Source: a virus
DNA length: 64,000 nt
Strand: one strand, 5' to 3'
IMG/VR virus record: IMGVR_UViG_3300046517_002960
Coordinates: 64,001 to 128,000 of that record
Shown here one piece after another: positions 7,574-62,211 of the stretch. Made by a program: the position numbers and the translations under genes. Under the pieces are notes generated by a model. It worked only from the letters and a program-made list of their open reading frames with translations. It did not search any database and was not told where the DNA came from. Position 1 is the stretch's first letter. The number at the start of each line of letters is the position of its first letter.

Positions 7574-10500
7574 TCAGTCCAGCCCCCCGAGCAGCATCCG
7601 GACATATCTGGGGTCCTTGTACAGCTGGCCCGCCTGGCCCGCCTTGTCTTTCAGCACCTCGCGACGGTACTGGTCGACCGTGTCCAGCGTGACGAAGTCC
7701 ACGATCTCCACGTGGTCCCACTTCTCGGCGCCGATCCGGTGCACCCGGTCCTCGGGCTGGATGGCCAGGTCCAGCTGGTAGGACCGCTGCAGCATGGCCG
7801 CGCTGTTGCTCGCGGTCAGGGTGATGCCGAGCCCGCCGGCGCCGAGCGTGCAGATGATAACGTCCAGCTTGCCCGCCTGGAAGTCCTCGACTGCGGCCTG
7901 CCGGGTCTTCTTGGTGACCCGCACGCCGGGCTCGCCGTACTCGCCGGAATTGCCCTCGCCGACGACGTAGCCGGTGCGCAGCCCGGCTTTGGCGCAGTAC
8001 TGCCCGGTGATCATGGCCAGCTGCCGGGACTCGGCGAACACCGCGGTGGGCTGGTCCGGCCGCTCGGCCAGCAGGTCCAGCAGCGCCTCGGCCTTCCAGC
8101 ACGGCGGCTTGAGGGTGACTGTGTAGTGCGGCTTGAGCAGCCCGGTGGCCTCGTCCAGCCGGTAGTCGACGGCGACGTCGGCGGCGCTCGACGCGAGCTG
8201 GGACAGCCGGGTCAGCTTCTCGATCGTGTACATGACCGGGAGCTCGCCGCCGTCCGGGAGCTCGGCCAGCATCTGATCGCGCATGGTGTCGTACGCGTGC
8301 CGCCAGGCCGGGGGCATCTCCGGGCGGCGCAGCGAGTAGATCTTGTCCGGCAGGAACGCCAGCACGTCGGCCTTGGCGACCCGGCGCAGCTGCCCGGCCA
8401 GCGCGGCGAAGAACTCGGCTTCCATCTCCGGGCGCAGGCCCAGGATCAGCTCGTCGTAGTCCCCGTTGCCGCGCCGGGTGGCCAGGTACCGCCGTTTCAG
8501 GTCTTCCTTGGACGGCCAGTCCAGCGGCGCCATGGTGAACAGCGGCTGGTAGATGTCGCCGAAGTCGTGGGTGACCAGCGTGCCCGACGCCCAGACCAGG
8601 GTCGCCGCGTAGTGCGCGACCCGCCACAGCGCTTTAGACTGCTTGGCCTTCGGGTTGCGGCCCAGGTGAGATTCGTCGGCGATGACGCAGGCGGCCCGGA
8701 TCTTCACCAGCAGGCCGCGCATGTCCGGGGCGTCCCGGCGCATCGTGGCGTAGGTGGTGATCAGGATGTACCGGCCGTGCTTCCAGCTGGCGATCCTGGC
8801 CCGCTTCGCCCCGCGGTGCAGGACCGGCTCCGGCCAGTGCGGCATCAGCTCGCGGATATGGTCCTGCCAGACGCGGGCTACCTCCCACGACGGCACGACG
8901 ATGACCATCGGGAAGACGTCGGTGCCGGCCAGGCGGCGGGCCTCGATGCCGAGCAGCGTCGACGCGGTGTTATGCGTCACCGCGAACCGGTCTGTAACGT
9001 ACAGGCGGGACGGGTGATCAATAGCGATGCACTGCATCGGCTTCCGGCCGGCGAACTCTGCTGAGACGAGTGACCGGGCCGGCTGGCGCGTGCTGTGCCT
9101 GTTTTTCCACAAGCAGGTCTTCCGGGACAGCCGGAACGGGGACAGCGGCTGTGGCAGGTTCACCGTGACCGTGTACCGCTCCCGGCCCAGCTGGAATCTT
9201 GCCGCCAGGTGCCCGGTGCCGCCCAGAGATTCGGCCAGCCACCGCACGTCCTCGGCCAGCTGCCGGCTGGATGAGCCGAACTGCGCGGTTCCGTCACGGC
9301 TCAGAACCCATCCATCGGTATCCATCAGTCCCTGCAGGACAGCAAGGCGGCAGCTGGCCGGGCTCATCTTGTAGGCGTCCGGGACGAACTTCGTCAGGCT
9401 TGAGCATCCACGCAGGCCCAGATCGGCCAGCGGGCCGGCAACCGGATGACACCTTTTTCCTGCTATCGGGAACCGGCTCCGGGTATCGTCCTTAACAGCT
9501 GCCTGGTAACAGCGCCCGCACAACCCTCGTGCGATGGCGATCCGCCCGCATGCGCAGATCCGGCCGTTCGCGGAACCGAGCGTGCTAACCAGCCGGTAGT
9601 CGTACTTTTTGCCCGGCTCTTTCTTCACGATGATACCGGGAGGAACTAGAGACTCGATGGACGCGACAATCTCGGCGTCAGCCGTTGACACCCGGGTTGA
9701 CCTGGTCGTGAACCCGCCGTCACCCAGCAGCAGGCCGAGCAGGTACGGGTCCAGCTCGCGTTTCGCGCCGCACTCAAGATCGGGGGCCGTGATCATCGGG
9801 ACGTACCACTTCGCACGGTCACTGTCACCGTTCGGAGCCCGGAGCCCGGCATCAATGAGATCCCGTAGCGTCCGGGTCTGCCAGTAATAGGGAAGCCGCT
9901 CACCGGTTGTCTTCGAGAGCATGCGGCGGTGCCTGCTTACCCGCCAGAGATGCTGGTCATTGCATTCAGCTGATGAGCCGTCGCTGAAGATGACTTCGTA
10001 GCAGTCTTGTTCTCCCTGCGGGAACACGCCGGTAACCCGGGATGGCGTGCCGTCTCCGGCGATCACCAGGTCGCCCGTGCGAATCTCGCCCATAGCCCGG
10101 AATCCGCTCGGGGTCAGCACTTGTGCGTCCAGTGGCTGTGCTTTCCCGGTGCCCGGCTCATCGCCCAGGAGGTACTTCCCGGCTGACGCGATCGCGGCGG
10201 CGCCGTCCAGCTGGTGCGGGTAGGGCGTGAACGACTCCGGCCAGCACCGCGGGATGGCGGGCGGTGGCGAGGTGCGGCGGATCGTCTCGGCGATGATCCA
10301 CTCGGTCAGCTTCGGCCAGGGCTTCCAGACCGTATGGCCGTCGTGGTTGTAGATGAACCCGAGCTGGACGATGGTGGCCCAGCTCAGCGGGTAGTACCGG
10401 GCGCCGGTCGGCTGGCCGTTCTCGTCCAGTGCCGATTCCCCGGCCGCCGTCAGCAGGTGCAGCCGCTCGGCGATGTTCTTCTTGTCATGCGCGGAGCCGG

Positions 10501-18290: not shown

Positions 18291-18953
18291 ATGAGCACCA
18301 TGACGGAGGCGCGGCCAGCCAGGCCGGCCCGTACCGACATCCGCCGGCCGGCGTCGGGGATCGTCATCGACCCGGCCGGCCTGACCTGGTGGCGGGATCG
18401 CCGCGCGATGTCCCGCCAGGACCTGTCCGACATGATCACTGTGCTGTGGCTGGACGGCCACCCGGACGCGCTGGCGTTCTGGCACGCCGCCGGGCCGCCC
18501 GGTGACGGGCATGCCGCCGCGCCGCCGCGCCCGGTTCCGGGCAGCACGGCCGATCCCCGGGTCTGCACGGTGTGCGGCGCCAAGATCAAGGGCGGCCTGA
18601 CCCGCGACGGGATCGCCAAGATAGAGCACCCCGATCCCGCCCGCGGCAGGCGGCCGAAAGCCCGCACCCTGCGGGCGCTGTGCGCGGCGCTGAGCACCAG
18701 TGACGAACCGGTCCTGCCCAGGCACCTGCAGCCAGGCGGGCCTGAGCTGCCGCTGTCCGCCGCCGCCCAGGACCGGCAGGCCCGCAAGTACTACAACGAC
18801 GCCATGGTCGGTTTCGCGGACGCGCTGGGCCGGCCGGAACTTTACACCAACAGCGCGGGCCGGCGGTATTACAGTAAGGAACTGCGCGAGATGTACGAGC
18901 AGTACCTGGCGCAGACCCGGGCCGGGACAGGCAGCACGGCCCGCGTGGCGTAG
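18291..18953 (+). CDS. XRE-like HTH regulator with internal insertion and Lsr2-like C-terminal domain
   Basis: LTWWRDRRAMSRQDLSD...LTRDGIAKIE...RPKARTLRALCAAL; CTVC in the insert; C-terminus resembles that of the upstream Lsr2-like protein. Confidence 0.7.
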   Translation: MSTMTEARPARPARTDIRRPASGIVIDPAGLTWWRDRRAMSRQDLSDMITVLWLDGHPDALAFWHAAGPPGDGHAAAPPRPVPGSTADPRVCTVCGAKIKGGLTRDGIAKIEHPDPARGRRPKARTLRALCAALSTSDEPVLPRHLQPGGPELPLSAAAQDRQARKYYNDAMVGFADALGRPELYTNSAGRRYYSKELREMYEQYLAQTRAGTGSTARVA

Positions 18954-19139: not shown

Positions 19140-20291
19140 GTGACCCCGCAGGAACAGCAGGCTGCGAAAGAGGCCGCCAAGAGGGTCACCGCCAGCCTGG
19201 CCTACATCGCCCGCCGGTACGGCCGCCTGACGGACGCGACCGCCCAGGCGACCGCGTACATGCAGCAGGTCAGCCACGCGTGGTACGCCGCGGGTGGCAG
19301 CGTCTCCCCCGGCAGCGGGCAGGACGCGAGCACGGGCCTGGCTCAGGTCCCGGGGGTTGCCTGGGGCTCAGCGGGCGGGAGCGCCGCGGGCAGCGTGACC
19401 CTGAGCGGCGGCGGAAGCGCCAGCCCCGGTCCGGGCGGCGGGGGCGGCGGGTTCACGCAGGTCCCGGGGGTTGCCTGGGGCAGTGCGGGCGGGAGCACGG
19501 CCAGCGCGAGCCTGGCTGGCGGTGCCTCGCGGAAGACAGCTCCCCGCATTGCCTCGGACGGGTTCAGCGATACCGAGCCCCCGGTCGTCGCCGGCTCCGT
19601 CACCGGTTACCGGTGGTGGACGCTTGCCGCCCCGGACCTGGCCGGCAACCCGCTGGAAGCCGACCGGTACTGGGACCCGGAGCGCGCGGCCAGGCTGCGC
19701 GGGGCCTGGGCCGCCTGGCAGCCGGGCGTCAACTTCGCGCAGTGCCTGGCCTACCAGGGCGCGGCGGCAGGCCATGACCCGGCACTTCTTCCGGCTAAAG
19801 GCTGCGGCTGCGGGTTCTGGGCGTACTGGGGCCTGCAGCAGTCCTCGCTGACCCGGCCCGGCACGCTGCCGGTGTTCGGCGTCATCAAGGGTTTCGGCCG
19901 GACCCGGACCGGCGCGCACGGCTTCCGCGTCGCCAAGGCCCGGATCCTGGCCGTGCACCTGCCGCTGGTCATCGGGAACCGGCAGCACATGCTGGACGAG
20001 CTGGCCCGTCGTGAGGCCGTCCGCCGGGCGATGTTCACCGGCCGGGTGATCAATGTCGGCACGGACCACGTGCCCGGGCCGCTGGGCGGCGCTCTCCCGG
20101 CGCCGGAACCGGTGCCCGAGCCGCCGCCGGAGGAGATCGCCGCGGACGAGGCCCGGGGCGAGGCGTGGCTGGCGGTGATCGGCGACCGGATCGAGCAGGC
20201 CTACCCCGGCGTCCGCGTGTTCGAGACGCGCGACGCGCTGCTGAAGACCTTCCCGCCGGACGCGGTGTACGGGCGGGGACAGCAGGCGTGA
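19140..20291 (+). CDS. Hypothetical protein with Gly/Ser repeat and Cys-containing domain of unknown function
   Basis: QVPGVAWGSAGGS twice; GYRWW..W.PG.N.AQC..GH...GCGCGFWAY..VFGVIKGFG...GFRVAKA. Confidence 0.75.
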   Translation: MTPQEQQAAKEAAKRVTASLAYIARRYGRLTDATAQATAYMQQVSHAWYAAGGSVSPGSGQDASTGLAQVPGVAWGSAGGSAAGSVTLSGGGSASPGPGGGGGGFTQVPGVAWGSAGGSTASASLAGGASRKTAPRIASDGFSDTEPPVVAGSVTGYRWWTLAAPDLAGNPLEADRYWDPERAARLRGAWAAWQPGVNFAQCLAYQGAAAGHDPALLPAKGCGCGFWAYWGLQQSSLTRPGTLPVFGVIKGFGRTRTGAHGFRVAKARILAVHLPLVIGNRQHMLDELARREAVRRAMFTGRVINVGTDHVPGPLGGALPAPEPVPEPPPEEIAADEARGEAWLAVIGDRIEQAYPGVRVFETRDALLKTFPPDAVYGRGQQA

Positions 20292-38397: not shown

Positions 38398-38772
38398 GTG
38401 ACGGACACGGAGATCAGCCGCTGGTGGTACCTGGACCTGGCCGCGGAGTTCCCGGAGCTGGAGATCCACACGGGCGGCTGGGGGCCGGAGCAGGAGCTGG
38501 CCGATATCGAGCTGGGTGACCGGGTGACGACGGAGGAGGCGCTGTGGCTGTTCACCTGGATCTATTCCGAGCCCAGGGACCGGCACTGGGCGGCGGTCAG
38601 CGGCATGGTCCGGATGGTATGCGACCGGATCCGCCGGGACCGGCCGCTGGCGGAGAAGATCCTGGCCGTCCTGGCCGGCGAGGACCCGGACCAGATCCCG
38701 GTGACCCGGGCTGAGATCCCGGACGGCTGGTACCCCGACGTGGAAGCTTGGGAGGCCGGGCGGCTGCCATGA
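38398..38772 (+). CDS. Hypothetical protein
   Basis: GTG at 38398 coupled to a 14-aa bridging ORF (38357-38401). Confidence 0.65.
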   Translation: MTDTEISRWWYLDLAAEFPELEIHTGGWGPEQELADIELGDRVTTEEALWLFTWIYSEPRDRHWAAVSGMVRMVCDRIRRDRPLAEKILAVLAGEDPDQIPVTRAEIPDGWYPDVEAWEAGRLP

Positions 38773-38954
38773 CCGAGACGCACCGGGTGACTATCTACGT
38801 GCCGCCTGCGCTGCATTCCCGGCTGTGGATCCTGCCGCCGCGCACCATCAGCCGGATCTGCCAGGCCGCGCTGCTCGCCGCGGTGGAGCAGGCCGAGCGG
38901 GAGCACGAGGAGGCCATGGCGGCCGGGCTGGACGACGCGTTCGCGGAAGACTGA
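38769..38954 (+). CDS. Ribbon-helix-helix-like small DNA-binding protein
   Basis: HRVTIYVPPALHSRL....ISRICQAAL..AV pattern; last gene of the rightward arm. Confidence 0.6.
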   Translation: MTETHRVTIYVPPALHSRLWILPPRTISRICQAALLAAVEQAEREHEEAMAAGLDDAFAED

Positions 38955-39037
38955 CGGGCTGTCGTGACTGAAACGTATACAAGGTACGGACCCTGGAAAT
39001 TTGCTGAAAGCGAGTATCGGCCGGTATCAGGTCTTGA

Positions 39038-39407
39038 GCGGTTGACGCGGCCCGCGTAAGGTTCGTGCGTGATGGGTCACGAACCTGGGCACGGGCCGCC
39101 CAGCAAGGGGCTTGCCACCGTCTGGCGCGCTCTCCCCGCTAGGCCGTGAGGCGTAGTGTGCGCGGGCTGGTCCGAGCCCGGGCCGAGGAGCCTGCAATTC
39201 CAGGCGCGGTGGGTCACCCCGGCTAGTTCGTCAACCGCACACGGCAGCTTACGCCGTCAAGCGTCTACCGGGTAGTAGGCGCGGCATGAGGATTCGCTGA
39301 ATGTTCGCGGATAATGACCCGGGTCGGCACGATTAGTTACGGCGCGCAAGCGAACTAACTGCGAAGTAACTGCCTGTGACCGGCTGACAGCTCTGCTTAA
39401 CGGCCGG
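39038..39407 (+). ncRNA. Putative large structured non-coding RNA of unknown family
   Basis: 10-bp long-range helix 39038-39047/39229-39238 enclosing at least 5 hairpins; GNRA loops (GTGA at 39146, GCAA at 39346); further hairpins to about 39407; no credible ORF. Confidence 0.55.
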
Positions 39408-39415
39408 GTTCCTGC

Positions 39416-41113
39416 CTAGATGATCCGGAGAGCCGCCGTAGGTGTCCAAGAGCCGCCCCAGGTGTGCCAGCCGACCAGCGTGCCGGGTTTGAGGGCACCG
39501 AAGCTGCCGTGCGGCAGGCCCGTAGCGAACTCTACGTGCCCAGGACCGAAGAACAGCAGGTCACCTCGTTTAACCCGGCTGAGTGAGATAGCCGTCAGAT
39601 GCGGGCTCCCGGCTAGCATCGCGAATGTCGTGCGCGGCAGGGAGACCCCGAGAGCAGCCCGGGCTGAAGCGAAGATCAAGCCCGAGCAGTCATAGCCCGT
39701 CCTGCCGGCCCCGCCCCACACGTACGGCGTCCCGGTAGCGTTGCGCTCGGCCCAGTTCAGCGCCGCGTTCCCGGCCGCGCTGCCGCCGGAAGCAGGCTCA
39801 GCCGGGGTGCGCAGCGCCGTCGTCACGGCCGTGGCCGCGGGAGGCACCGCCGGGGACGGGCTGCCGGACGGCGCGGGAGGCACCGCCGGGGACGGGCTGC
39901 CGGACGGCGCGGGAGGCACCGCCGGCGCTGCCCCGGCGGCCGGGGTGCCGAACAGCGGGCAGTTCAGGTTGGCCAGCGAGGCGGTCAGCCGCTGCTTCAG
40001 GAACTCGTTCAGGGTCAGCCCCGGCACGATCGGCTGCGGGCCGGTCTCGAGCGGGGCGTCCAGTGCCAGCCGGGCGGGCGCCAGCGCGGCCAGGTGATCA
40101 CAGAAGCCCTTTGCCTCCGCAGCCAGGTCGCCCGTTACCGCCGGCTGGCCCACCCCGGCCCGGTACGCGTTCGTCTTGACCGCGGACAGGTTCGCTGCGG
40201 TCGGCGGGCTGCCGTTAGCGCCCGTCGTGGTCATCGGGTCGTTGGGCGGGACCAGCGCCACGCCGTCCGGGGACGGGTTCGCCGCGGCCAGCAGCTCGTT
40301 CAGGCCCTGCGCGGTGACGCTGCGGCCGGGGCTGGCCAGGTCCGGCGCGGTGAACGGGGTGCAGCCCAGGGCCGGGTCCACGAACCCGTCGACCAGCCCG
40401 TTGTCGGACGGATTGCGGATCACCGTGGCGCCGGGCAGCGCGGCCTCGTTCGCCGCGGTGTCCTGCGCGGTCCGGCCGTCCGCGGTGGCCAGGTACCTGG
40501 TGGTCACGTTGTCGGACGGGTCCTGGTCGACCAGGGTGAAGTCCCGCACGGTCGGGCAGGGCTTGCCGTCCTTCCCGGTGCCGAGCGGCGGGACGGGAGT
40601 GTGCCGGGCTGCTGCCGCGGCGAAGAACGCGGGCGCGTTCGCGTACGCGACCTGGCCGAATTGCGACCCGGCCGCGCCCTGGGTGAACGCCCCGGCGCCG
40701 GGGCCTTGCAGGGTGAGCACGGTGCCGTCGAACCCGGTCCAGATCGCCACCACGGACCCGGCCGGGAGGACCGGCACGACCGGGGCGGCAGCCGGCTTCT
40801 TGTTCACGTCGGTCACCAGCGGGTTGTAGACGGATGGCGCCCCGTCCGGTCCGATGATCGCGGCCTGCACGAACGCCCCGGTAGCGGGATCCGCCTCGGT
40901 GCACCCGGCCTCGGGGACCAGCCGGTAAGGGGCGGCCAGCCCGGCGGCCGTCAGCGGGTTCGCCGGGACGATCAGCTTGCAGTTCCCGGACCCCGGCGGG
41001 TCAGCCCGGGCCGCGGGCGCAGTGACGGCCGCCGCTGTCAGGCAGGCGGCCAGGACGGCAAGGACGGCCGGGATGGCTGCTCGCCGCCGGGCGCGGGGTC
41101 GGGGCAGGTGCAT
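39416..41113 (-). CDS. Secreted protein with uncharacterised N-terminal domain and C-terminal NlpC/P60 peptidoglycan peptidase
   Basis: Arg-rich signal peptide; TPYVWGG....YDCSGL...LPRTT...GDLLFF..GHV; AVPPAPSGSPSP tandem repeat linker. Confidence 0.85.
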   Translation of the reverse strand: MHLPRPRARRRAAIPAVLAVLAACLTAAAVTAPAARADPPGSGNCKLIVPANPLTAAGLAAPYRLVPEAGCTEADPATGAFVQAAIIGPDGAPSVYNPLVTDVNKKPAAAPVVPVLPAGSVVAIWTGFDGTVLTLQGPGAGAFTQGAAGSQFGQVAYANAPAFFAAAAARHTPVPPLGTGKDGKPCPTVRDFTLVDQDPSDNVTTRYLATADGRTAQDTAANEAALPGATVIRNPSDNGLVDGFVDPALGCTPFTAPDLASPGRSVTAQGLNELLAAANPSPDGVALVPPNDPMTTTGANGSPPTAANLSAVKTNAYRAGVGQPAVTGDLAAEAKGFCDHLAALAPARLALDAPLETGPQPIVPGLTLNEFLKQRLTASLANLNCPLFGTPAAGAAPAVPPAPSGSPSPAVPPAPSGSPSPAVPPAATAVTTALRTPAEPASGGSAAGNAALNWAERNATGTPYVWGGAGRTGYDCSGLIFASARAALGVSLPRTTFAMLAGSPHLTAISLSRVKRGDLLFFGPGHVEFATGLPHGSFGALKPGTLVGWHTWGGSWTPTAALRII

Positions 41114-60981: not shown

Positions 60982-62007
60982 TCAGGTGCCGGGCAGGCCG
61001 TAGACCGGGTAGCGCGCGATGCGGCTGGCCGCGTTCCATGTCGACTTGAGTGACACGGCTGCCGTGACACCGCCAGTGACACTGTAGTCAGGCAGAATGG
61101 TGCCGAAGAAGTACTGCGGCAGCTGTGACGGAAGCGACGACGGGTAAAGATAGAAGTTGCGCGGCAGGCCGTCAGTGGCTGATACGTACGTTTGCGTTGT
61201 AGCGGTGTCGTAGAAGCCGCTGAAGTCTCCTGAGGCGTCCGGGAGTCCTGCGACCCAGATGAGGTTCTGGTCCGATCTGTTACCTCTCGCCCCTGCGAGC
61301 GAGCGGGCCAGTCATTTCTGCTGGCCTCTGCATATCTCTATGCAGGCCGGACTGTATCTTCACCCGCGTGGGGTGCCGCGTACACAGTCTCTGAACCTTC
61401 TCGTCGGCTTGCGCCAGGCGAGCTCGGCTGCTGATTACCCCTGCTGGCTGCTTTTCGGACCGTCGCGCTCGCGCTTTCGCGCCACGCTGTGGTGCAGCCA
61501 GGTGACCCGGGCGTCCCAGCAATTCTCGCAGTTTTCACAGTAGAATCACTTCTACCGGGGGCAAACACCCATAGCAGTTACATCAACTTTCGCAACTGTA
61601 AAATTGATGCTCCAGGCGCTCAAAAACGCCATGGGACTCGCTGTTGGATTGGCGCCACCTGGGCCATCTACAGCCACATAGGCGATGCCGTTTCGCGTTC
61701 TGTTACCTCTCGCCTAAGCGAGCGGGCAGGTCGTTTCCGCCTGCCTCTGCATATCTCTATGCAGACCGGACCATATCTTCACCCGCATGGGGTGCCACGT
61801 ACATGGTCTCTGAACCTTCTCGTCGGGGCTGACCCAGGCGAGCTCGGCTGCTGATTGCCCCTGCCGGCCACTTCTCAGAACCGTCGCGCCCGGGCTTTCG
61901 CCCCACGCTGTGGTGTGACCGGGTGATGCGGGTGTTCCAGCAATTCTCGCGGTTTGCACTGAAAGATCGCTCTCTCAGGCGGCCAGCCGACCGTGAATAC
62001 GACTCAT
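60982..62007 (-). CDS. Major tail (tube) protein, 145 aa, three exons: 62007-61990, 61695-61567, 61272-60982
   Basis: Spliced product MSRIHG|RNGIAYV...WSINFTVAKVDVTAMG|DQNLIWVAGLPDASGDFSGFYD...NFYLYP...YFFGTI... is a continuous actinophage-type tail tube sequence; GGAAAGGTG RBS; directly upstream of the TAC. Confidence 0.9.
61273..61566 (-). ncRNA. Group I self-splicing intron 2 (294 nt, no ORF)
   Basis: Follows exon U (ATGGGT|), ends in G; P AATTGCTGG, Q AATCAGCAG, R GGTTCAGAGACT, S AAGATACAGTCC; P1 GGGT/GCCC with U-G pair. Confidence 0.93.
61696..61989 (-). ncRNA. Group I self-splicing intron 1 (294 nt, no ORF)
   Basis: Follows exon U (CACGGT|), ends in G; P AATTGCTGG, Q AATCAGCAG, R GGTTCAGAGACC, S AAGATATGGTCC; P1 CGGT/GCCG with U-G pair. 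Confidence 0.93.
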
Positions 62008-62211
62008 GTATCCACACCTTTCCCTGCCTGCGCAGAGATGCCGAGGCCAGCCAAGCTGGTAACAGCCGTTAGACCGGGCACCGGACTCCGCGGAACGTGA
62101 GTAACGGAGCCGGCTCCGCCATCCGTGCAGACCCTGGACCGGGGGCAGCTACGGGGCCACGGCAGCTATCAGGAGTAACGATAACGCAGTCAGTTTGTGG
62201 ACAATGAGAGC

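What the first reader, a model, noticed from the sequence alone, without database searches (positions are those of the whole stretch)
39038..39407. Candidate novel large structured RNA where the two transcription arms converge
Seen in the 460-bp ORF-free gap: a closing helix GCGGTTGACG/CGTCAACCGC (39038/39229). Inside it are CGGCCCG/CGGGCCG (39048/39092), AGGTTCGTG/CACGAACCT (39060/39078), GCAAG/CTTGC, GCC-GTGA-GGC, CGGGCT/AGCCCG and GCCTG-CAATTC-CAGGC (T-loop-like). Downstream are ACGGC/GCCGT, GCGTCTAC/GTAGGCGC, and TTAGTT/AACTAA enclosing CGC-GCAA-GCG. TAGTTCG (39224) can pair alternatively with CGAACTA (39351). G-U pairs and GNRA loops favour the + strand. This is far more structure than a terminator needs, and I cannot assign it to tRNA, tmRNA, RNase P, SRP or intron classes. 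Inference: an undescribed phage ncRNA or ribozyme.
Basis: partly seen in the sequence, partly recalled or inferred. Interest (0 to 1): 0.75.

Follow-up and report, generated by a model that had tools for sequence, protein, structure and literature searches.

The report
New structured RNA in soil actinophages
A non-coding stretch of about 240 bases, lying where the two gene arms of a large soil actinobacterial phage converge, folds into a conserved multi-helix RNA that matches no known RNA family.

Summary
The core observation holds. Window 39033-39269 (perhaps to 39283) contains a real, conserved, non-coding structured element. Thirteen distinct full-length relatives and one truncated type were found in soil and rhizosphere metagenome and virome contigs. 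All lie in the same convergent gap, directly downstream of a cell-wall hydrolase gene. Two phages carry it in tandem.

A ten-helix model is 82-84% paired across the relatives, against 38-44% for slid controls. It has 19-25 pairs with changes on both sides, and no shuffle of 500 reached the observed pairing or covariation score.

Wobble pairs (40 G.U against 11-12 A.C in the core helices), RNAalifold energies and shuffle z-scores (-4.97 against -2.36) place the RNA on the minus strand.

Rfam 15, ARAGORN and terminator scans find nothing in the gap. No reading frame is conserved.

It also missed the long-range helices P2, P3 and P7.

Function is unknown. My best guess is a stable protein-binding ncRNA made at the 3' end of the late transcription unit. 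Expression is untested.

The same 190-kb phage record also encodes an RNase P RNA, 37 tRNAs, and Ro60/Rsr with a Y-RNA-like array.

The parts
39033..39269 (-). Core structured RNA element. It has 237 nt and ten helices, P0-P9, and corresponds to positions 1-235 of covariance model R1.
   Evidence: The model scores 229 bits here. z = -4.97. Covariation is shown.
39261..39282 (-). Possible extra 5' hairpin, P(-1). It overlaps the first 9 nt of the core model.
   Evidence: It is present in the window, L008 and L041, with a stem change between clades (CUAC/GUAG versus CCGGC/GCCGG) and a conserved loop. The two mismatches in the window and L008 are A.C on the minus strand and G.U on the plus strand, so the strand is ambiguous for this hairpin.
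39241..39257 (-). P0 hairpin, 5' of the closing helix.
   Evidence: A hairpin is present in every relative, with different stem sequences. It is poorly aligned by MAFFT and the CM, so the tables show only 55% pairing.
39230..39238 (-). P1 5' strand. The partner strand is 39038-39046. This is the closing helix that joins the 5' and 3' ends.
   Evidence: 90% paired. One position runs U-A (3 sequences), U-G (6) and C-G (4).
39217..39226 (-). P2 5' strand. The partner strand is 39100-39109. Long-range helix.
   Evidence: 85% paired with 3 pairs changed on both sides. Recurrent U-G and G-U pairs, and one G-to-A change that keeps an A-U pair.
39207..39212 (-). P7 5' strand. The partner strand is 39115-39120.
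   Evidence: 82% paired with 3 pairs changed on both sides. For example, L031 and L077 change G-C to A-U. The helix is unclear in the L009/L023/L080/L047 clade.
39191..39204 (-). P6 variable hairpin.
   Evidence: The stem is lengthened and changed in other clades, to 6-7 bp with a four-base loop.
39185..39190 (-). P3 5' strand. The partner strand is 39132-39137. It closes the P3/P4/P5 three-way junction.
   Evidence: 96% paired. U-G wobbles occur in 8 sequences at two positions, and C-G changes to U-A in 4.
39163..39180 (-). P4 hairpin: a 6-bp stem with the loop CGGACC.
   Evidence: It is invariant in 14 of 15 rows, and L086 has one G-U. This invariance is partly by ascertainment, because most relatives were found with a 20-mer covering it. 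L086, L077, L083 and L080 were found through proteins instead.
39139..39156 (-). P5 variable hairpin.
   Evidence: 5 of 6 pairs change on both sides. The hairpin is deleted entirely in L041.
39124..39131 (-). Near-invariant unpaired junction strand, AGCGCGCC, directly 3' of P3.
   Evidence: It lies in a 13-base block that is identical in 13 of 15 rows, although those bases were not part of the search pattern.
39047..39099 (-). P8 (10 bp) stacked on the P9 hairpin, whose loop carries a conserved CCAUCRC.
   Evidence: P8 is 93% paired, including a C-G to U-A change in L031. P9 is 85% paired with 6 pairs changed on both sides. This whole arm is absent in the L032/L022/L049 type.
38991..39012 (-). 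Conserved block 3' of the element, U-rich on the minus strand.
   Evidence: It is shared with L083 and L031, and less clearly with L077. L072 and L073 are 100% identical up to 45 nt past P1 and then diverge.
39315..39326 (.). 12-nt palindrome between the hydrolase stop codon and the element.
   Evidence: It is conserved in L008 and L077, and in variant form in L041. Its role is unknown.
39416..41113 (-). NlpC/P60 hydrolase gene (565 aa), the last gene of the minus-strand late arm.
   Evidence: Pfam PF00877, E = 1.2e-12. In every relative the gene upstream of the element, on the same strand, is an NlpC/P60 or LysM-transglycosylase protein, in some followed by one small ORF.
38769..38954 (+). 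Last ORF (61 aa) of the plus-strand arm, converging on the element.
   Evidence: ORF list. There is no family match. L008 carries a 1.7-kb insertion at this position relative to the window.

Best explanation
The gap holds one copy of a previously undescribed family of structured RNA, about 235-250 nt long.

Shown:
- It is encoded on the window's minus strand, from about 39283/39269 down to 39033. It is co-oriented with the NlpC/P60 hydrolase gene that ends the late (tail, lysis, wall-remodelling) arm of a roughly 190-kb soil actinophage, and starts 130-150 nt downstream of it.
- It is better conserved than its flanks.
- It folds into a closing helix, P1, from which two arms leave. One is P8-P9. 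The other is P2-P7, which leads to a junction carrying P6 and the P3/P4/P5 three-way junction.
- Its helices are kept through compensatory and wobble changes in 13 lineages.
- It has no conserved reading frame and matches no Rfam family.

Inferred:
- It is made as the 3'-terminal part of the late transcript, or from a promoter of its own.
- It persists as a compact, stable RNA because P1 ties its two ends together.
- Its invariant P4 loop, the adjacent junction strand and the conserved P9 loop form a binding surface for a phage or host protein.

On this reading it is a trans-acting RNP-type ncRNA rather than a plain terminator. The partner and the biological role are not known.
For: Conservation: the element is 89% identical to L008, while the adjacent hydrolase is 79% identical in protein.

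Relatives: there are 13 full-length variants and one truncated type, always downstream of, and co-oriented with, a wall hydrolase gene in a convergent gap.

Structure:
- CM alignment: 84.4% of cells paired against 38-44% when slid; 25 pairs changed on both sides against 3-11; covariation score 0.198 against 0.04-0.08; no shuffle of 500 reached the pairing or covariation score.
- Structure-blind MAFFT alignment: 82% paired, 19 such pairs, no shuffle of 500 reached the pairing or covariation score.

Strand:
- 40 G.U against 11-12 A.C in core helices, recurrent at the same pairs in several lineages.
- RNAalifold -77.8 against -63.9 kcal/mol.
- z = -4.97 against -2.36.

Non-coding: stop codons occur in all frames in many relatives.

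Autonomous unit:
- Tandem copies in L008 and L077, each with its own P0 and P1.
- Peripheral hairpins P5 and P9 are lost in some lineages while the core is kept.

Specific recognition: a near-invariant unpaired junction block and a conserved P9 loop, neither of which was used for ascertainment.

Not a split att site: both arms are homologous between the window and L008.
Against: No transcript evidence exists, and no conserved promoter or terminator was found. The one promoter-like site, 39448-39420, is not conserved in L008, and no terminator-like site lies in the gap.

The sample is small and phylogenetically structured: 13 lineages, all from soil. The tool's shuffle control can be exceeded by related sequences alone. 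The structure was also derived from the window sequence, which inflates the contrast with slid controls.

P4's invariance is partly due to ascertainment through the 20-mer used in the search.

The P(-1) hairpin shows plus-strand-type wobbles.

The protein-binding role is inference only.
Confidence: 0.5

Rival explanations
1. It is a cis-acting 3'-end module of the late operon. A large structured cap would stop transcription, insulating the two converging arms, and block 3'-to-5' exonucleases, stabilising the long late mRNA. It would have no function in trans.
For: The position is constant at the end of the late arm and co-oriented with it, whatever the last gene is. In L031, and arguably L041, a small hairpin with a U-rich tail follows P1 on this strand. 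The 100% identity between L072 and L073 ends 45 nt past P1.
Against: No terminator-like site was found in the window gap. Simple hairpins suffice for both tasks. Invariant unpaired strands and loops, three nested junctions and tandem duplication are not explained. The L032 type has lost the 3' arm, including the 3' strand of P1.
Confidence: 0.2
2. The RNA is made from the plus strand and is a partner of Ro60/Rsr. On the plus strand, the P4 loop plus its closing base reads GGUCCGA, the heptamer that vertebrate Ro60 contacts on Y RNAs. The same phage record encodes an Rsr protein.
For: GGUCCGA lies in the P4 loop on the plus strand. PMC4201824 names this heptamer as the Ro60 contact. A 573-aa protein with TROVE and Ro60 vWA domains is encoded 55 kb away in the same record.
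Against: Wobble statistics, alifold energies and z-scores all favour the minus strand. The YrlA and Y_RNA models do not match the gap even at E<=10. The bacterial motif GNCGAAN0-1G is not met. The record's own Y-like repeats lie next to rsr and use a different 5' motif. A 7-mer match is expected by chance in roughly 5-10% of such gaps (my estimate). No TROVE gene was found in the two related virus records, but both are incomplete.
Confidence: 0.08
3. It is a self-cleaving or otherwise catalytic RNA that releases itself from the late transcript.
For: The fold is ornate, with invariant junction nucleotides. Tandem copies occur. The genome is rich in catalytic RNAs, with two group I intron matches and an RNase P RNA.
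Against: There is no similarity to any known ribozyme class. The element is larger than most self-cleaving classes.
Confidence: 0.07
4. It acts as DNA rather than RNA. It could be a single-strand initiation or priming signal, or another structured single-stranded DNA site used during replication or packaging, or a cluster of protein-binding sites.
For: G.T is tolerated in folded single-stranded DNA too, so the strand asymmetry does not exclude it. The element sits at a mosaic boundary between modules. A palindrome and direct repeats flank it.
Against: Long-range helices 50-190 nt apart with compensatory changes are atypical for protein-binding DNA sites. The element is not near replication or terminase genes. 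It is intact inside the record, so it is not a split att site.
Confidence: 0.07

Closest known systems
Orphan ornate ncRNAs of phages and prophages (GOLLD, ROOL; Rfam families)
   Same: Multi-junction structured RNAs carried by phages or prophages. They have no obvious cis target and unknown function, and were recognised through covariation.
   Different: This element is much smaller: about 240 nt against roughly 580-800 nt (sizes from memory). There is no covariance-model match. It is fixed at the 3' end of the late arm, behind a wall hydrolase gene, rather than beside tRNA genes.
YrlA / Y RNAs bound by Ro60 (Rsr)
   Same: They are phage-encoded structured ncRNAs, and this genome encodes Rsr. 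The heptamer GGUCCGA is present.
   Different: The heptamer is on the strand that the wobble pairs disfavour. There is no YrlA model match, no tRNA-like domain, and the element is 55 kb from rsr.
Intrinsic terminators and 3' stabiliser stem-loops at operon ends
   Same: The location in a convergent gap at the end of a long operon, and a GC-rich structure.
   Different: This element has ten helices, three junctions, and invariant single strands and loops. No U-tract terminator is found in the window. Tandem copies exist.
phi29 packaging RNA (pRNA)
   Same: A phage-encoded RNA of comparable size (about 170 nt, from memory), with several helices and conserved loops, acting with proteins.
   Different: From memory, pRNA is confined to phi29-like podoviruses, lies at a genome end and is expressed early. 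There is no sequence or model similarity, and no evidence here for a role in packaging.
NLPC-P60 RNA motif (Actinobacteria). Recalled from memory, so a lead only.
   Same: Association with NlpC/P60 genes in Actinobacteria.
   Different: As I recall, that motif is a 5' cis-regulatory candidate upstream of the gene, whereas this element lies downstream. No Rfam family matched the gap, and a paper search found nothing.

Membership tests
Any Rfam 15 family | Covariance-model match at or near the gathering score | tested here: not met
   There were no gathering-level hits in the gap. At E<=10 the only hits were RT-19 (17.9 bits against a threshold of 78.3) and PyrR205 (13.1 against 35.6).
tRNA / tmRNA | Cloverleaf or tmRNA detected by ARAGORN | tested here: not met
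   The only tRNA in the window is tRNA-Leu at 18686-18777.
Intrinsic terminator | GC-rich hairpin followed by a U-tract at the operon end | tested here: not met
   No terminator-like site was found between 38955 and 39415 on either strand. A terminator-like tail is seen only in some relatives.
YrlA / Y RNA | Match to the YrlA model, including its tRNA-like T and D arms | tested here: not met
   The model does not match the gap. The same model does hit a unit next to rsr, at 38.7 bits.
YrlA / Y RNA | Encoded adjacent to the Ro60/rsr gene | tested here: not met
   rsr lies at record 158251-159972 and the element at record 103033-103269.
YrlA / Y RNA | 5'-proximal Ro60-binding motif: GNCGAAN0-1G in bacteria, GGUCCGA in vertebrates | tested here: inconclusive
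   GGUCCGA is present, but it is central, on the plus strand only, and in a hairpin loop. The bacterial motif is absent.
Group I intron | Match to the Intron_gpI model | tested here: not met
   Matches occur only at 61328-61612 and 61747-62011, and none in the gap.
Phage attachment site (attP, or attL/attR) | Lies at the phage-host junction, or is split in an integrated copy | tested here: not met
   The element is intact. Both flanks are homologous, at 83-88%, between the window and L008.
Protein-coding gene | A reading frame kept open across relatives | tested here: not met
   No frame is open in all relatives, and indels are not multiples of three.
Conserved structured RNA (generic) | Base pairs maintained by compensatory change beyond controls | tested here: met
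   See: no shuffle of 500 reached the observed pairing or covariation score, and pairing is about twice that of slid controls. A phylogeny-aware test such as R-scape could not be run.
Conserved structured RNA (generic) | Detected transcript of the predicted strand and size | not testable with these tools
   No RNA run holds the stretch.

The most novel reading that the evidence does not exclude
The element is the RNA subunit or substrate-mimic of a phage RNA-handling system, or a new self-processing ribozyme, and is functionally tied to this phage family's unusual RNA toolkit. That toolkit includes its own RNase P RNA, about 37 tRNAs, Ro60/Rsr with a Y-RNA-like array, and group I introns. For example, it could be a structured decoy or tether that redirects Rsr/PNPase-type RNA decay or RNase P during late infection.
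Probability: 0.15. Interest if true: 0.85.

Novelty: categorically new. Interest (0 to 1): 0.64.

Why it matters
If it is transcribed, this would be a new class of mid-size structured RNA. It has three nested junctions and invariant single-stranded segments, a degree of complexity usually seen in ribozymes, riboswitches or RNP scaffolds. It is carried by large soil actinophages of about 190-200 kb that also bring their own RNase P RNA, tRNA set and Ro60/Y-RNA system.

Its fixed place behind the cell-wall hydrolase genes, at the end of the late arm, gives a concrete and testable entry point into what such phages do with non-coding RNA late in infection.

'Categorically new' refers to the sequence and structure family: no known family matches. 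Orphan structured ncRNAs in phages are themselves a known phenomenon, and the function here is unknown.

Tried and rejected
- A phage GenBank blastn search with the gap found no match.
- Exact-pattern scans of the viral collection with other blocks of the element found only L009 and L010, or chance hits in coding DNA (L011-L019, L069, L070).
- All 17 hits of the genome contigs 20-mer scan were chance hairpins.
- Relatives of the 147-aa left-flank protein: none found.
- The hydrolase relatives L002-L007, L078, L079 and L087 lack the element.
- Sequencing runs: no RNA holder is listed. The four DNA runs that were laid gave only identical contigs and no variants.
- A conserved promoter was not found. 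The site at 39448-39420 and my hand-read -10/-35 candidates are not conserved.
- An alternative pairing of the invariant junction strand with the P6 region, seen in the single-sequence MFE fold, is not kept in relatives.
- Pseudoknot ideas, P9 loop with the P2/P7 junction and P4 loop with other strands, have no variation that could test them.
- The P4 hairpin does not recur in the 190-kb record: 14 near-matches against 14 for the control pattern.
- The CM found no second copy in the record.
- The Y-RNA link is treated as a low-probability rival.
- Literature searches found no description of such an element.
- Pfam and PHROGs gave no hits for most left-arm ORFs I picked, so I make no claim about an integrase.

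Full report
**Setting.** The window is bases 64001-128000 of a 190,216-bp IMG/VR record labelled provirus, with about 71% G+C. The finding lies in a 461-bp gap (38955-39415).

On the left is a plus-strand arm ending with a 61-aa ORF (38769-38954). On the right is a minus-strand arm whose last gene is a 565-aa NlpC/P60 hydrolase (39416-41113, Pfam E = 1.2e-12). Further along the minus arm are a transglycosylase-like protein and a 2320-aa tape-measure protein, so this is the late arm of a phage.

Related loci show the same order: amidase, small ORFs, LysM-transglycosylase, NlpC/P60.

The whole gap folds only modestly better than shuffles: z = -2.1 on the plus strand and -3.2 on the minus strand. 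The 237-nt core 39033-39269 is exceptional on the minus strand: -128.8 kcal/mol, z = -4.97, with 0 of 200 shuffles as stable. On the plus strand it gives z = -2.36. The remainder, 39270-39415, is ordinary (z = +0.80).

**Known families.** Rfam 15 has no hit in the gap at gathering scores. At E<=10 there are only two weak matches, far below their thresholds. ARAGORN finds nothing there. The terminator scan finds nothing in the gap.

**Relatives.** The closest hydrolase homologue (79% identity, P0002) lies on a soil contig, L008. Downstream of that gene are two copies of the element. One is 89% identical to window 39003-39386, which is better conserved than the neighbouring coding DNA. The other is 75% identical to 39035-39259.

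A 20-mer from the most conserved hairpin retrieved further copies from virome and metagenome contigs. All hits of the same 20-mer in 185,579 species genomes were chance.

Looking up contigs that encode the small NlpC/P60 proteins found next to these copies gave four more variants that do not depend on that 20-mer: two tandem copies in L077, plus L083, L080 and the most divergent, L086.

In total there are 13 distinct full-length sequences. There is also a truncated type (L032, L022, L049) that lacks the P8/P9 arm.

Every copy sits in a convergent gap. On the window's minus-strand sense it lies 50-230 nt downstream of an NlpC/P60 or LysM-transglycosylase gene, in some with one small ORF in between.

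The window and L008 are homologous on both sides of the gap, at 83-88%. The element is therefore internal to the phage and is not an attachment site. L072 and L073 are identical up to 45 nt beyond the element and then diverge, so it sits at a mosaic module boundary.

**Structure.** I used RNAalifold together with inspection of the anchored sequences. The model is written on the minus strand.
- P0 is a hairpin 5' of the core.
- P1 is a 9-bp closing helix.
- P2 and P7 are long-range helices forming one arm.
- P6 is a variable hairpin.
- P3 closes a three-way junction that carries the invariant P4 hairpin (loop CGGACC) and the variable P5 hairpin.
- P8 and P9 form a second, coaxial-looking arm whose loop carries a conserved CCAUCRC.

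A covariance model built on this structure (R1) scores 115-229 bits on the 15 rows and finds nothing else of full length.

| Measure | CM-fitted alignment | Slid controls | MAFFT alignment |
|---|---|---|---|
| Cells paired | 84.4% | 38-44% | 82.0% |
| Pairs changed on both sides | 25 | 3-11 | 19 |
| Covariation score | 0.198 | 0.04-0.08 | 0.167 |
| Shuffles of 500 reaching the pairing and covariation scores | 0 | not applicable | 0 |

Modular loss supports a fold built from separable domains: P5 is absent in L041, and P8/P9 are absent in the L032 type. No frame stays open across relatives.

Three caveats apply. The lineages are few and related. The structure was derived from the window sequence. 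The invariance of P4 is partly forced by how most relatives were found.

**Strand.** In the core helices of the 13 full-length sequences there are 40 G.U cells against 11 A.C cells on the CM alignment, and 40 against 12 on the MAFFT alignment.

The G.U cells recur at fixed pairs in several lineages. One P1 pair is U-A in 3 sequences, U-G in 6 and C-G in 4. One P3 pair is U-G in 6, and one P9 pair is G-U in 6. The A.C cells are scattered at helix ends or at shifted registers.

RNAalifold gives -77.8 kcal/mol for this sense and -63.9 for the other. The only contrary hint is the extra 5' hairpin at 39261-39282, whose two mismatches would be wobbles on the plus strand.

TTAGTT/AACTAA and TAGTTCG/CGAACTA are not kept even in L008. 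The local GCAAG/CTTGC hairpin competes with P2, which has covariation support.

**Function.** Nothing lies downstream on either strand, so a 5' cis-regulator such as a riboswitch is excluded by position. Four features argue for a discrete, stable, specifically recognised RNA rather than a mere terminator:
- the two ends are tied together by P1;
- the tandem copies are complete units;
- peripheral hairpins vary while the core is kept;
- unpaired segments are near-invariant.

I put this reading at about 0.5, with the protein-binding step inferred only. A cis-acting 3' cap or insulator for the late operon is the main rival, at 0.2. A plus-strand Rsr partner, a ribozyme and a single-stranded DNA signal each sit at about 0.07-0.08.

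**The Rsr lead.** On the plus strand, the P4 loop plus its closing base reads GGUCCGA, the Ro60 contact heptamer of vertebrate Y RNAs (PMC4201824). The same record encodes a 573-aa protein with TROVE and Ro60 vWA domains. Directly upstream of that gene are tandem Y-RNA-like units, one of which matches the YrlA model at 38.7 bits, below its threshold of 69.

This is striking, but the strand evidence, the 55-kb distance, the lack of any YrlA match in the gap and the different 5' motif of the record's own Y-like units all speak against membership. I keep it as a low-probability rival and as part of the novel case.

**Novelty.** No Rfam family, no paper found and no earlier scan note on other DNA describe this element. 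It is a candidate new RNA family that is rare and restricted to soil actinophages. Its function is unknown and its expression is unproven.

Noticed in passing
window 61328-61612 and 61747-62011 (minus strand): Two adjacent full-length matches to the group I intron model (54.7 and 55.6 bits, threshold 50) lie in the late arm. The flanking ORFs gave no Pfam hit, so the interrupted gene is unknown.
   Followed up: partly
outside the window: record G000:C1:150257-157547 (L090:257-7547): An array of 37 tRNA genes on one strand, with a bacterial class A RNase P RNA embedded in it at L090:2493-2844 (261 bits, threshold 100, full length). A phage-borne RNase P RNA would be unusual.
   Followed up: partly
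outside the window: L090:7560-8280 and 8251-9972: At least five or six tandem Y-RNA-like units, each with a 5' GGGCCGGA...CGGTTAYC motif and a 3' ACAYGCCCG motif. One matches the YrlA model at 38.7 bits, below its threshold of 69. They lie directly upstream of a 573-aa Ro60/Rsr gene with TROVE and Ro60 vWA domains.
   Followed up: partly
L008:4690-4905, L077:1693-1910, L031:3396-3613: A second conserved non-coding element of about 215 nt ('B') lies 3' of the main element in three relatives. It is about 90% identical among them and contains a P4-like hairpin with the same CGGACC loop and a covarying stem. It is absent from the window, and its strand is ambiguous.
   Followed up: partly
window 39315-39326: A 12-nt palindrome lies between the hydrolase stop codon and the element. 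It is conserved in L008 and L077, and in variant form in L041. The L023, L080 and L032 clade instead has a conserved TTACC...GGTAA hairpin at that place.
   Followed up: no
window 38991-39012: A block is conserved with L083 and L031 just 3' of the element on the minus-strand sense. In L031 it contains a direct repeat of CTGAGAA, read on the plus strand. It is possibly a protein-binding site or the transcript's 3' end.
   Followed up: no
window 18686-18777 (minus strand): A lone tRNA-Leu(CAG). The neighbouring 383-aa ORF (19140-20291) gave no integrase or any other family match, so the prophage boundary is not established.
   Followed up: partly
records G001 (108,794 bp) and G002 (55,599 bp), which hold L010 and L009: CheckV completeness of 52% and 26% implies genomes of about 200 kb for the relatives, so the element belongs to a lineage of large actinophages. 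The 'provirus' label of the window's record may deserve checking.
   Followed up: no
L008:4316-6056: Relative to the window, L008 has a 1.7-kb insertion at the convergence point. It carries the second element copy, element B and an HTH_31/DUF5753 regulator gene co-oriented with the hydrolase, so this is a variable 'moron' hotspot.
   Followed up: no
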